Positions 3,001 through 5,498 of a stretch of DNA of 64,000 nt are shown here, piece after piece. The first letter of the stretch is position 1. Each line of letters begins with the position of its first letter. The DNA lies in the NCBI RefSeq assembly GCF_048403405.1, contig NZ_CP183129.1; one strand, 5' to 3'. The DNA is from Escherichia coli. GTDB taxonomy: Bacteria; Pseudomonadota; Gammaproteobacteria; Enterobacterales; Enterobacteriaceae. A program made the position numbers.

Positions 3001-5498
3001 AGTGCCATCAGGCGTGGGGCCAGCAATACGCTGCCCGCCTGCGGTTTCAGGCCAGGGGGATTAGTTTGCAGATCGCCATACATCGGGTAGATATCATCCA
3101 CCGCTTTGACGTTCGCCAGCTGCGGTGTGTCGCCTGCAAATGTCATGGTGGCGAAAGTCAGCTGCTTGCCGACTTTCAGGCCGCGCTTTTGCGCTTCCTC
3201 CAGCCACGCTGGCGGCACTTCGCGCGAACTGCGCAACGCCCGATCGCCCGCCATAAACTCCCGGCTTTGTTGGCTTAAGCCCTTCTCCATGCGATCGCTG
3301 ATATTGCCCAGCGCCAGCACGCAGGCCACCGCCAGGCTTAGCGCCAGCCAGACAATTAATAGCGACGGCGAACGCCATTCGCGCCAGAACCAACGTGCAA
3401 TCATGCTTCCTCCTGCAACTGCCCGTTCACCAGCCGTAAGCAGCGGTCGCAGCGTGCCGCCAGTTGCAGGTCGTGAGTCACCATAATCAACGTGGTGCCA
3501 TGTTCACGGTTGAGGGAAAACAGCAGGTCGGCAATTTTATCGCCCGTCTGGCGGTCAAGGTTGCCGGTGGGTTCGTCGGCAAACAGCACATCAGGTCGAC
3601 CGTTAAAGGCTCGTGCCAGCGCCACTCGTTGCTGTTCACCGCCGGAAAGCTGTGCCGGAAGATGATCCAGACGTTTACCCAGCCCTAACTGTTCGAGCAA
3701 CGCTTTCGCCCCGTTACGACTTTCTGCGCTACTCTCACCACGCAGCAGCGCCGGAAGCTCGACGTTTTCCAGCGCGTTAAGGGTAGGAATTAACATAAAT
3801 GACTGAAAAACAAAGCCTACGTGCTTCGCGCGCAACTTTGCCCGCGCTTCTTCGTCCATATTATGTAGTGGTTGTCCCACCAGACTCACTTCGCCACTGC
3901 TGCCGTCATCCAGCCCGGCGAGGATCGCCAGCAAGGTTGACTTACCCGATCCCGACTCGCCCACCAGTGCGATGGTCTCGCCACGTTTGACAACCAGCTC
4001 AACTCCGGTGAGGATGGAGAGTTCATGCTCCCCCTGACCGACGGACTTCTTAAGATGATGAACTTCAACAATGTTTTCCGCTGGCATTTGCCCTTCCTGT
4101 TCCTGGTCCTGTTAACCTTCCGTGCCGCCGCAGCGGACACGTTATTGATTCTGGGTGATAGCCTGAGCGCCGGGTATCAAATGTCTGCCAGCGCGGCCTG
4201 GCCTGCCTTGTTGAATGATAAGTGGCAGAGTAAAACGTCGGTAGTCAATGCCAGCATCAGCGGCGACACCTCGCAACAAGGGCTGGCGCGCCTTCCGGCT
4301 CTGCTGAAACAGCATCAGCCGCGCTGGGTGCTGGTAGAACTGGGCGGCAATGACGGTTTGCGTGGTTTTCAGCCACAACAAACCGAGCAAACGCTGCGCC
4401 AGATTTTGCAGGATGTCAAAGCCGCCAACGCTGAACCATTGTTAATGCAAATACGTCTGCCTGCAAACTATGGTCGCCGTTATAATGAAGCCTTTAGCGC
4501 CATTTACCCCAAACTCGCCAAAGAGTTTGATGTTCCGCTGCTGCCCTTTTTTATGGAAGAGGTCTACCTCAAACCACAATGGATGCAGGATGACGGTATT
4601 CATCCCAACCGCGACGCCCAGCCGTTTATTGCCGACTGGATGGCGAAGCAGTTGCAGCCTTTAGTAAATCATGACTCATAAAGCAACGGAGATCCTGACA
4701 GGTAAAGTTATGCAAAAATCGGTCTTAATTACCGGATGTTCCAGTGGAATTGGCCTGGAAAGCGCGCTCGAATTAAAACGCCAGGGTTTTCATGTGCTGG
4801 CAGGTTGCCGGAAACCGGATGATGTTGAGCGCATGAACAGCATGGGATTTACCGGCGTGTTGATCGATCTGGATTCACCAGAAAGTGTTGATCGCGCAGC
4901 CGACGAGGTGATCGCCCTGACCGATAATTGTCTGTATGGGATCTTTAACAATGCCGGATTCGGCATGTATGGCCCCCTTTCCACCATCAGCCGTGCGCAG
5001 ATGGAACAGCAGTTTTCTGCCAACTTTTTCGGCGCACACCAGCTCACCATGCGCCTGTTACCCGCGATGTTACCGCACGGTGAAGGGCGTATTGTGATGA
5101 CCTCATCGGTGATGGGATTAATCTCCACGCCGGGTCGCGGCGCTTACGCAGCCAGTAAATATGCGCTGGAGGCGTGGTCGGATGCGCTGCGCATGGAGCT
5201 GCGCCACAGCGGAGTTAAAGTTAGCCTGATCGAACCCGGTCCCATTCGTACTCGCTTCACCGACAACGTCAACCAGACGCAAAGTGATAAACCAGTCGAA
5301 AATCCTGGCATCGCCGCCCGCTTTACGTTGGGACCGGAAGCGGTGGTCGACAAAGTGCGCCATGCTTTTATTAGCGAGAAACCGAAGATGCGCTATCCGG
5401 TAACGCTGGTGACCTGGGCGGTAATGGTGCTCAAGCGCCAGCTGCCGGGGCGCGTGATGGACAAAATATTGCAGGGGTGAGTTGAAGCGCGCGCTTAA

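What the first reader, a model, noticed from the sequence alone, without database searches (positions are those of the whole stretch)
4055..4087. Head-to-head 33-bp overlap of divergent tesA and ybbA coding starts
The first 11 codons of tesA (+) and of ybbA (-) occupy the same DNA on opposite strands, so each promoter must lie within the other gene. This is a conserved arrangement, but it constrains both N-terminal sequences (the TesA signal peptide and the YbbA N-terminus) and suggests transcriptional interference between a lipid-metabolic enzyme and an ABC transporter.
Basis: seen in the sequence. Interest (0 to 1): 0.25.

Follow-up and report, generated by a model that had tools for sequence, protein, structure and literature searches.

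The report
Head-to-head tesA/ybbA coding overlap
The first 10-11 codons of the E. coli lipid hydrolase gene tesA and of its partner ABC-transporter gene ybbA really are written on opposite strands of the same 30-33 bases; this rare arrangement is conserved but already annotated and published, so the finding is correct and of modest interest.

Summary
ybbA (-) starts at window 4087. tesA (+) starts at 4055 (K-12 annotation) or 4058 (RefSeq and the comparative evidence). The overlap is therefore 33 or 30 bp, with codons in exact antisense register: each ATG is read as a His CAT codon on the other strand.

The overlap is genuine dual coding. ybbA has no other usable start. One of the two tesA ATGs is kept in all 22 Enterobacterales compared. 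Third-codon positions in the overlap are the most conserved of either gene.

Published start-site data place the tesA transcription start at 4023. Its promoter, TTGACA-17-GAGGAT, lies inside ybbA codons 25-34. Weak ybbA starts lie inside tesA (4242, 4429, 4474).

Across 80 genomes the two genes are always divergent neighbours. Vibrionaceae and others share only 2 bp (CATG) and Pseudomonas has a 10-bp gap. The 30-bp overlap is an Enterobacterales-wide derived state, made by extending TesA's signal peptide.

The overlap is in the K-12 annotation, was noted in the 2025 YbbAP-TesA structure paper, and is listed as a divergent 'excludon'. Transcriptional interference remains untested, and the two products are partners in one complex.

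The parts
3401..4087 (-). ybbA coding sequence (228 aa ABC ATPase of the YbbAP type VII transporter)
   Evidence: ORF. 100% identical to PDB 9GE6-8 YbbA. Pfam ABC_tran. The ATG at 4087 is the only canonical start between the upstream in-frame TAA (4112-4114) and codon 42, and it is invariant in 23 Enterobacterales.
4055..4681 (+). tesA coding sequence (K-12 style start, 208 aa; RefSeq and comparative start at 4058, 207 aa)
   Evidence: Pfam GDSL lipase. The ATG at 4058 is kept in 20 of 22 Enterobacterales; Photorhabdus keeps only the 4055 equivalent; E. cloacae, Superficieibacter and Mangrovibacter have ACG at the 4055 equivalent.
4055..4087 (.). Dual-coding overlap (33 bp; conserved core 4058-4087 = 30 bp), codons in exact antisense register
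   Evidence: Codon pairing table. Highest third-position conservation of both genes. ATGAACTTCAA is invariant except in Photorhabdus and Mangrovibacter.
3987..3992 (+). tesA promoter -35 hexamer TTGACA, on ybbA codons V32-V33-K34
   Evidence: The sequence upstream of the mapped start in Kim et al. 2012 matches window 3973-4023 exactly. Relaxed scan. Third positions of V32 and V33 are invariant in 23/23 Enterobacterales.
4010..4015 (+). tesA promoter -10 hexamer GAGGAT (AAGGAT in most relatives), on ybbA codons I25-L26
   Evidence: 17-nt spacer from the -35, 7 nt before the mapped start.
4023..4023 (+). tesA transcription start (45 reads; 5'UTR 32 nt to ATG 4055)
   Evidence: Kim et al. 2012 supplement: NC_000913.2 position 519021, minus strand, converted through.
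4091..4098 (-). ybbA Shine-Dalgarno (AGGAAGGG on the minus strand), encoded inside TesA signal-peptide codons P-F-L
   Evidence: AGGA with a 7-nt spacing in all Enterobacterales except Brenneria. TTCCT is conserved in the alignment.
4242..4242 (-). Candidate ybbA transcription start (2 reads, 5'UTR 155 nt)
   Evidence: Kim et al. 2012, position 518802 +. Low read support.
4429..4429 (-). Candidate ybbA transcription start (Cappable-seq, weak). A TTTGCA-18-AACAAT motif at 4467..4438 predicts a start near 4431.
   Evidence: Ettwiller et al. 2016 supplement, position 518615 +. Relaxed promoter scan.
4474..4474 (-). Candidate ybbA transcription start (2 reads, 5'UTR 387 nt)
   Evidence: Kim et al. 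2012, position 518570 +.
4025..4027 (+). Upstream in-frame ATG of the tesA ORF (antisense of ybbA His21 CAT); rejected as the start
   Evidence: It lies at +3 of the mapped mRNA, so the GGAGAG motif before it is not transcribed. It is absent in Citrobacter FP75, Yersinia, Rahnella and others.
4088..4090 (+). In-frame TTG (tesA Leu12) that some annotations use to remove the overlap; rejected as the start
   Evidence: It is not a start codon in about half of the Enterobacterales: TGG, CTT, CTC, TTA, ATC, ACA, TTT. It would leave a signal peptide with no basic n-region.

Best explanation
This is a genuine head-to-head dual-coding segment between two genes whose products work together.

Shown:
- ybbA must start at 4087 and tesA at 4058 or 4055, so 30-33 bp encode both the n-region of TesA's Sec signal peptide (M(M)NFNNVFRWH) and the first residues of YbbA (MPAENIVEVHH).
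- The start of each gene is the antisense of a His CAT codon in the other.
- There is no intergenic DNA, so every expression signal sits in the partner's coding sequence.
- The tesA promoter (TTGACA-17-GAGGAT, start at 4023) lies on ybbA codons 25-34.
- The ybbA ribosome-binding site (AGGAA) lies on TesA signal-peptide codons.
- The weak ybbA transcription starts lie 155-387 nt inside tesA.

Inferred:
- The ancestral gammaproteobacterial state was start codons abutting or sharing 2 bp (CATG).
- In the Enterobacterales ancestor the TesA start moved about 8 codons upstream, onto an ATG lying antisense to ybbA's His10/11. The DNA between the GDS and Walker-A motifs did not change in length (192-196 nt in both groups).
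- The overlap has since been frozen by double constraint.
- Consequence: the two mRNAs are complementary over at least 220 nt at their 5' ends, and RNA polymerases from the two promoters travel toward each other.
- With a moderate tesA promoter and weak ybbA promoters, the likely effect is at most mild, asymmetric damping of ybbAP. A true on/off switch is unlikely.
- The main biological meaning is tight linkage of the partner genes tesA and ybbAP.
For: - Coordinates and register.
- K-12 and RefSeq annotation.
- ybbA start forced: no alternative start before codon 42. LolD/MacB structures align from YbbA residue 6-9. ATG and the AGGA Shine-Dalgarno are conserved.
- tesA start: at least one ATG at the 4055/4058 equivalents in 22/22 Enterobacterales.
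- Dual-coding signature: ybbA third positions 0.92 in codons 1-11 against 0.60 elsewhere (P=4e-7). tesA 0.87 against 0.57 (P=2.5e-5). The overlap is the top-ranked window in both genes. Control: the ybbP N-terminus scores 0.76, or 0.62 without Met/Trp.
- Brenneria carries a 15-nt in-frame insertion inside the overlap that keeps both frames open.
- Transcription starts. The promoter motif predicts a start at 4022 against 4023 observed.
- The -35 is conserved at synonymous ybbA sites.
- Phylogenetic pattern in 80 loci.
- Physical YbbAP-TesA complex and a published note that the operons overlap.
- Overlapping transcription in at least 50% of 58 RNA-seq sets.
Against: - No direct mapping of the translation starts was found. 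TRAINSPOTTER supplements have no entry, and Ribo-RET text has none.
- Mature TesA loses its N-terminus with the signal peptide, so ordinary proteomics cannot show it.
- tesA has no recognisable Shine-Dalgarno before either ATG.
- The ybbA starts rest on 2 reads each or a weak Cappable-seq signal. The minus-strand Cappable-seq table was cut in storage.
- 5' ends of genes carry some extra synonymous constraint in general, which accounts for part of the signal.
- The ancestral-state inference comes from a sample of 80 genomes with no explicit tree.
Confidence: 0.8

Rival explanations
1. Selected antisense regulation (a true 'excludon'). The overlap exists because pairing of the complementary 5' mRNA regions and head-on polymerase traffic make tesA and ybbAP expression mutually exclusive or ratio-controlled. 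Each mRNA would mask the other's ribosome-binding site and the duplex would be cut by RNase III.
For: - tesA-ybbA is one of 16 divergent excludons called in at least 50% of 58 E. coli RNA-seq samples.
- The mapped starts give at least 220 nt of complementary 5' RNA that covers both start regions.
- Near-zero spacing of the two starts is kept across Gammaproteobacteria.
Against: - For a pair whose coding sequences overlap, the excludon call follows automatically from the annotation and says nothing about antagonism.
- The products form one complex, so anticorrelated expression would be counter-productive.
- Both promoters are weak to moderate (45 and 2 reads). Established knowledge of transcriptional interference says collisions are rare at low firing rates.
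- No RNase III or expression-correlation data could be obtained.
Confidence: 0.2
2. Annotation artefact on the tesA side. TesA really starts at the in-frame TTG at 4088, as in annotations that give a 197-aa protein, so the genes only abut and do not overlap.
For: - Several gene callers and the K. pneumoniae MGH78578 annotation give 197-aa/594-nt versions.
- There is no Shine-Dalgarno before ATG 4055/4058.
- Abutting starts (CATATG, CATG) are the common state outside Enterobacterales.
Against: - The codon at 4088 is not a start codon in about half of the Enterobacterales, while the ATG at 4058 or 4055 is always present.
- ybbA synonymous sites opposite tesA codons 1-10 are nearly frozen.
- A TTG start would give a signal peptide with no basic n-region residue.
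- The Arg of FRWH aligns with the n-region Arg of Vibrio TesA.
- The 15-nt insertion in Brenneria keeps the tesA frame open.
Confidence: 0.05
3. Annotation artefact on the ybbA side. YbbA initiates downstream of 4058, which removes the overlap.
For: None found beyond the general possibility of non-canonical starts. ATT occurs at codon 6.
Against: - No ATG/GTG/TTG occurs between codon 1 and codon 42, one codon before Walker A.
- Residues 6-41 align with structurally resolved LolD/MacB domains.
- The ATG with an AGGA motif at 7 nt is conserved in Enterobacterales.
- Codon 6 is not conserved as ATT.
- The protein used for the cryo-EM structures starts at MPAEN.
Confidence: 0.02

Closest known systems
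The annotated tesA/ybbA overlap of E. coli K-12 (b0494/b0495), described in the YbbAP-TesA structure paper (PLoS Biol 2025, PMC12646458)
   Same: Identical locus and geometry: a 33-bp overlap, with the tesA-ybbO unit facing away from ybbA-ybbP. The window differs from K-12 TesA by one residue.
   Different: Nothing in the arrangement itself. This report adds which ATG is conserved, the mapped promoter inside ybbA, the synonymous-site evidence and the phylogenetic spread.
Divergent excludons (ExcludonFinder, NAR 2025, PMC12288877; the concept comes from Listeria loci)
   Same: Divergent neighbours whose transcripts overlap at their 5' ends. tesA-ybbA is on the published E. coli list.
   Different: Classical excludons overlap in long untranslated regions and pair genes of opposing function. 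Here the coding sequences overlap, the products are partners in one complex, and no reciprocal expression has been shown.
CATG two-base head-to-head start overlap of the same gene pair in Vibrionaceae, Psychromonas, Rheinheimera, Cupriavidus and others
   Same: The same two orthologous genes, divergent, with no intergenic DNA. Each ribosome-binding site lies inside the partner's first codons.
   Different: Only the central AT of the two ATGs is shared. TesA's signal peptide is about 8 residues shorter (24-25 against 32-33 codons from start to GDS).
Same-strand 4-bp ATGA overlaps (e.g. ybbA/ybbP at window 3401-3404)
   Same: Compaction of functionally linked genes by overlap of coding ends.
   Different: Same-strand overlaps allow translational coupling on one mRNA (established knowledge). 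An opposite-strand start-start overlap cannot, and it is far rarer: 2 divergent against 586 co-oriented pairs in E. coli.

Membership tests
Divergent (head-to-head) overlapping protein-coding gene pair | Both reading frames encode real, expressed proteins | tested here: met
   YbbA is 100% identical to the chain in PDB 9GE6-8. TesA and YbbA have GDSL and ABC_tran Pfam domains. Both are purified as a complex in PMC12646458.
Divergent (head-to-head) overlapping protein-coding gene pair | The start codons are placed so that the 5' coding ends share DNA on opposite strands | tested here: met
   The ybbA start is forced to 4087. The tesA ATG at 4058/4055 is conserved in 22/22 Enterobacterales. The evidence is comparative only; no direct initiation mapping was found.
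Divergent (head-to-head) overlapping protein-coding gene pair | Signature of double constraint: synonymous sites of one gene are conserved where they are non-synonymous in the other | tested here: met
   Third-position conservation is 0.92 against 0.60 in ybbA (P=4e-7) and 0.87 against 0.57 in tesA (P=2.5e-5). The control N-terminus of ybbP scores 0.76, or 0.62 without Met/Trp.
Excludon (divergent type) | Transcripts of the two divergent genes overlap | tested here: met
   The tesA start at 4023 (+) and the ybbA starts at 4242/4429/4474 (-) come from published tables. The pair is listed by ExcludonFinder. The ybbA starts are weakly supported.
Excludon (divergent type) | Reciprocal (mutually exclusive) expression of the two units | not testable with these tools
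   No expression-correlation or promoter-knockout data were available. The partnership of the products argues against it.
Excludon (divergent type) | RNase III processing of the sense-antisense duplex | not testable with these tools
   The supplement of the RNase III target paper is not held.
Type VII (MacB-like) ABC transporter with a periplasmic partner: YbbAP-TesA | ATPase (YbbA), 10-helix permease (YbbP) and the partner hydrolase TesA encoded together | tested here: met
   ybbP 990..3404, ybbA 3401..4087 and tesA 4055..4681 are in the window. The RefSeq names match. All 80 sampled loci match YbbA upstream of tesA on the opposite strand; it is fragmentary in Ca. Pantoea persica, and the gap is within 113 bp in all but one of the 77 loci scored.
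Sec signal peptide of TesA | Basic n-region, hydrophobic core, and an Ala-X-Ala site before the mature ADTLL | tested here: inconclusive
   The sequence M(M)NFNNVFRWH-LPFLFLVLLTF-RAAAA/ADTLL fits by eye. No signal-peptide predictor was run. The cleavage site is from established knowledge (Cho & Cronan 1993), not checked here.

The most novel reading that the evidence does not exclude
The near-zero spacing of the tesA and ybbA starts is kept from Pseudomonas and Vibrio to E. coli, and was deepened to 30 bp in Enterobacterales. Under this reading the spacing is selected because the obligatorily complementary 5' mRNA ends act as a built-in ratio controller. Duplex formation would mask both ribosome-binding sites and trigger joint decay, so surplus tesA or ybbAP message is titrated by the other. 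This would keep the hydrolase and its transporter in balance without any protein regulator.
Probability: 0.12. Interest if true: 0.5.

Novelty: already known. Interest (0 to 1): 0.2.

Why it matters
Head-to-head coding overlaps are very rare in E. coli: 2 divergent among 663 overlapping pairs. This one links a widely engineered enzyme with the transporter it docks on. 'Leaderless' TesA is a workhorse of fatty-acid production.

There are practical consequences:
- Deleting or recoding the tesA 5' end also alters the first 10-11 codons of ybbA and its ribosome-binding site.
- Editing early ybbA can destroy the tesA promoter.
- Automated annotators disagree on the tesA start, giving 197, 204, 207, 208 and 218 aa versions.

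The locus is also a clean natural example of start-codon migration producing dual coding. It remains a small, already documented feature, not a new mechanism.

Tried and rejected
- Upstream ATG at 4025. It looked attractive because GGAGAG sits 5 nt before it. I rejected it because the mapped tesA mRNA starts at 4023, so that motif is not transcribed. The ATG is merely the antisense of ybbA His21 and is missing in several genera.
- TTG 4088 as the tesA start. Rejected because it is not conserved.
- ATT at codon 6 as the ybbA start. Rejected because it is not conserved.
- The default promoter scan found nothing in 3700-4500. A relaxed scan was needed to recover the experimentally supported promoter.
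- Supplement searches that gave nothing:
  - ExcludonFinder, no files held.
  - Romero et al. 2014.
  - Thomason et al. 2015, not held.
  - TRAINSPOTTER N-terminomics.
  - RNase III targets, no files held.
  - Ribo-RET preprint text.
  - Klebsiella start sites for KPN_00472/3 in the stored part of Kim et al..
- Cappable-seq. Only the plus-strand part of the table is stored, so the tesA-strand starts could not be cross-checked there.
- A search for a conserved ybbA promoter through synonymous-site conservation inside tesA gave no convincing peak beyond the overlap and the ribosome-binding site.
- The ybbO control had only 8 usable sequences.

Full report
**What is there**

The window is E. coli; 1.5 kb around the site is 100% identical to several complete genomes. 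On the minus strand, ybbA runs 3401..4087. On the plus strand, the tesA reading frame is open from 4025 and ends at 4681. K-12 MG1655 annotates tesA 519139..519765 (-) and ybbA 519733..520419 (+), which is the same 33-bp overlap. RefSeq/PGAP genomes start tesA one codon later, at window 4058, which gives 30 bp. The two frames are in exact antisense register. tesA M1-M2-N-F-N-N-V-F-R-W-H faces ybbA H11-H10-V-E-V-I-N-E-A-P-M1, so each start codon is the antisense of a His CAT codon in the partner.

**Are the starts right?**

For ybbA there is no choice. An in-frame TAA lies nine codons upstream, and there is no ATG/GTG/TTG between codon 1 and codon 42, one codon before Walker A. Solved LolD and MacB structures align from YbbA residue 6-9 onward, and the protein used for the YbbAP cryo-EM structures begins MPAEN. 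The ATG, with an AGGA motif 7 nt upstream, is conserved in Enterobacterales.

For tesA there are four in-frame candidates: 4025, 4055, 4058 and TTG 4088. I compared 22 Enterobacterales, from Escherichia to Proteus, Providencia, Photorhabdus and Budvicia.
- The ATG at 4058 is present in all but Photorhabdus, which keeps only the 4055 equivalent.
- The 4055 codon is ACG in Enterobacter cloacae, Superficieibacter and Mangrovibacter.
- The 4025 ATG and the 4088 TTG are each missing in several genera.

The conserved start is therefore 4058. E. coli happens to have both ATGs, so the overlap is 30 or 33 bp.

**Evidence of dual coding**

I used codon alignments of 23 Enterobacterales.
- ybbA third-codon positions have a mean majority frequency of 0.92 in codons 1-11 against 0.60 in codons 12-228 (one-sided Mann-Whitney P=4e-7).
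- tesA codons 1-10 score 0.87 against 0.57 (P=2.5e-5).
- The overlap is the top-ranked 10-codon window in both genes.
- As a control for a general 5'-end effect, the first 11 codons of ybbP score 0.76. That falls to 0.62 once single-codon Met and Trp are set aside.
- Brenneria roseae carries a 15-nt insertion inside the overlap that adds five residues to both proteins and keeps both frames open.

**Expression signals**

Kim et al. 2012 (PMC3415461, supplement) list a tesA transcription start at NC_000913.2 position 519021 (45 reads, 5'UTR 32 nt). Their 51-nt upstream sequence equals window 3973-4023, so the start is T4023.
- The promoter reads TTGACA (3987-3992), a 17-nt spacer, then GAGGAT (4010-4015). 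A relaxed scan picks it as the best plus-strand site and predicts a start at 4022.
- It lies on ybbA codons 25-34.
- The third positions of Val32 and Val33, opposite the -35, are invariant in 23/23 genomes. GTTTGACAA is kept in 18 of 22; Morganellaceae have CTCGACAA.
- This start also rules out the 4025 ATG as a normal start, because the GGAGAG motif before it is not in the mRNA.
- tesA has no Shine-Dalgarno before 4055/4058.
- The ybbA Shine-Dalgarno AGGAA is the antisense of TTCCT in TesA signal-peptide codons P-F-L, and it is conserved.

For ybbA the same table lists only weak starts: 518802 and 518570, 2 reads each, equivalent to window 4242 and 4474. Cappable-seq (PMC4782308) gives a weak start at 518615, equivalent to window 4429, with none nearer to the gene. 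A TTTGCA-18-AACAAT motif at 4467..4438 fits the 4429 start. The two mRNAs are complementary over at least 220 nt.

**Phylogenetic spread**

A TesA-profile scan of one genome per species returned 80 loci. All 80 have a match to YbbA directly upstream of tesA on the opposite strand; in Ca. Pantoea persica only fragments of it remain. I scored 77 loci for start spacing.
- 30 bp in 19 loci and 33 bp in 2, all Enterobacterales.
- 45, 39 and 20 bp in single cases.
- 2 bp, the palindrome CATG shared by both ATGs, in 19 loci: Vibrio, Photobacterium, Psychromonas, Rheinheimera, Alishewanella, Cupriavidus and others.
- An overlap of 0 bp, or a gap of 1 or 2 bp, in 7 loci.
- A 10-11 bp gap in 7 Pseudomonas (CATggagaatccgATG).
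- Gaps of 19-113 bp in 19 other loci, and one of 445 bp.

The DNA between the GDS motif and Walker A is 192-195 nt in Enterobacterales and 193-196 nt in Vibrionaceae. The distance from TesA's start to GDS is 32-33 codons against 24-25. YbbA's start to Walker A is 42 against 41. I infer that the overlap arose in the Enterobacterales ancestor when the TesA start moved about eight codons upstream within a segment of unchanged length. That move lengthened the signal-peptide n-region.

**What is already known**

- The 33-bp overlap is in the K-12 annotation.
[quoted passage not shown] It notes similar linkage in other Gram-negatives and shows that TesA docks on the periplasmic domains of YbbP.
- ExcludonFinder (PMC12288877) lists tesA-ybbA among 16 divergent excludons seen in at least 50% of 58 RNA-seq samples. 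For a pair whose coding sequences overlap, that call follows automatically.
- Huvet & Stumpf 2014 count only 2 divergent overlaps among 663 overlapping pairs in E. coli, so the arrangement is rare but catalogued.

**Mechanism and verdict**

I am confident of the anatomy (about 0.8). It is a real dual-coding start-start overlap, with promoters and ribosome-binding sites embedded in the partner gene, and it is conserved across an order. The regulatory consequence is inferred, not shown. Head-on transcription and complementary 5' RNAs could damp expression, most likely of ybbAP by the stronger tesA promoter. But both promoters are modest and the products act together, which argues against a mutual-exclusion switch.

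The finding is correct, well interpreted apart from the interference emphasis, and already known. Interest is low to modest.

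Noticed in passing
window 3401-3404 and 4671-4681: ybbA and ybbP overlap by 4 bp (ATGA) on the minus strand. tesA and ybbO overlap by 11 bp on the plus strand. All four genes of the locus therefore share coding DNA with a neighbour.
   Followed up: no
window 4178-4180 (TesA residue 42): The window's TesA has Gln where K-12 and most relatives have Arg (GYQMSA against GYRMSA), next to the catalytic GDSLSAGY block. The allele is shared by several complete E. coli genomes that match at 100%.
   Followed up: no
L014 2501-2578 (Brenneria roseae): A 15-nt in-frame insertion inside the overlap adds five residues to both proteins (TesA FRGPGFGWH, YbbA MPTKTGPAENI). This lengthens the overlap to 45-48 bp. 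TesA has a further insertion just downstream.
   Followed up: partly
L024 (Candidatus Pantoea persica): ybbA survives only as fragments and the tesA match is truncated. This looks like gene decay in a symbiont genome.
   Followed up: no
window about 3554, minus strand (NC_000913.2 position 519490, inside ybbA): Kim et al. 2012 list a weak internal transcription start (3 reads) assigned to ybbP, 150 nt upstream of its start codon.
   Followed up: no
protein hits P0001-P0120 and K. pneumoniae KPN_00472: Public annotations give TesA lengths of 194, 197, 204, 207, 208 and 218 aa, plus much longer fusions (286-347 aa). Gene callers handle this head-to-head overlap inconsistently.
   Followed up: partly
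L050, L058, L067, L069, L077, L080 (Pseudomonas), around 2480-2510: In Pseudomonas the 10-bp gap CATggagaatccgATG holds a GGAG for tesA. No comparable motif precedes the ybbA homologue. Long upstream open frames exist on both sides, so start calls there are less certain.
   Followed up: no
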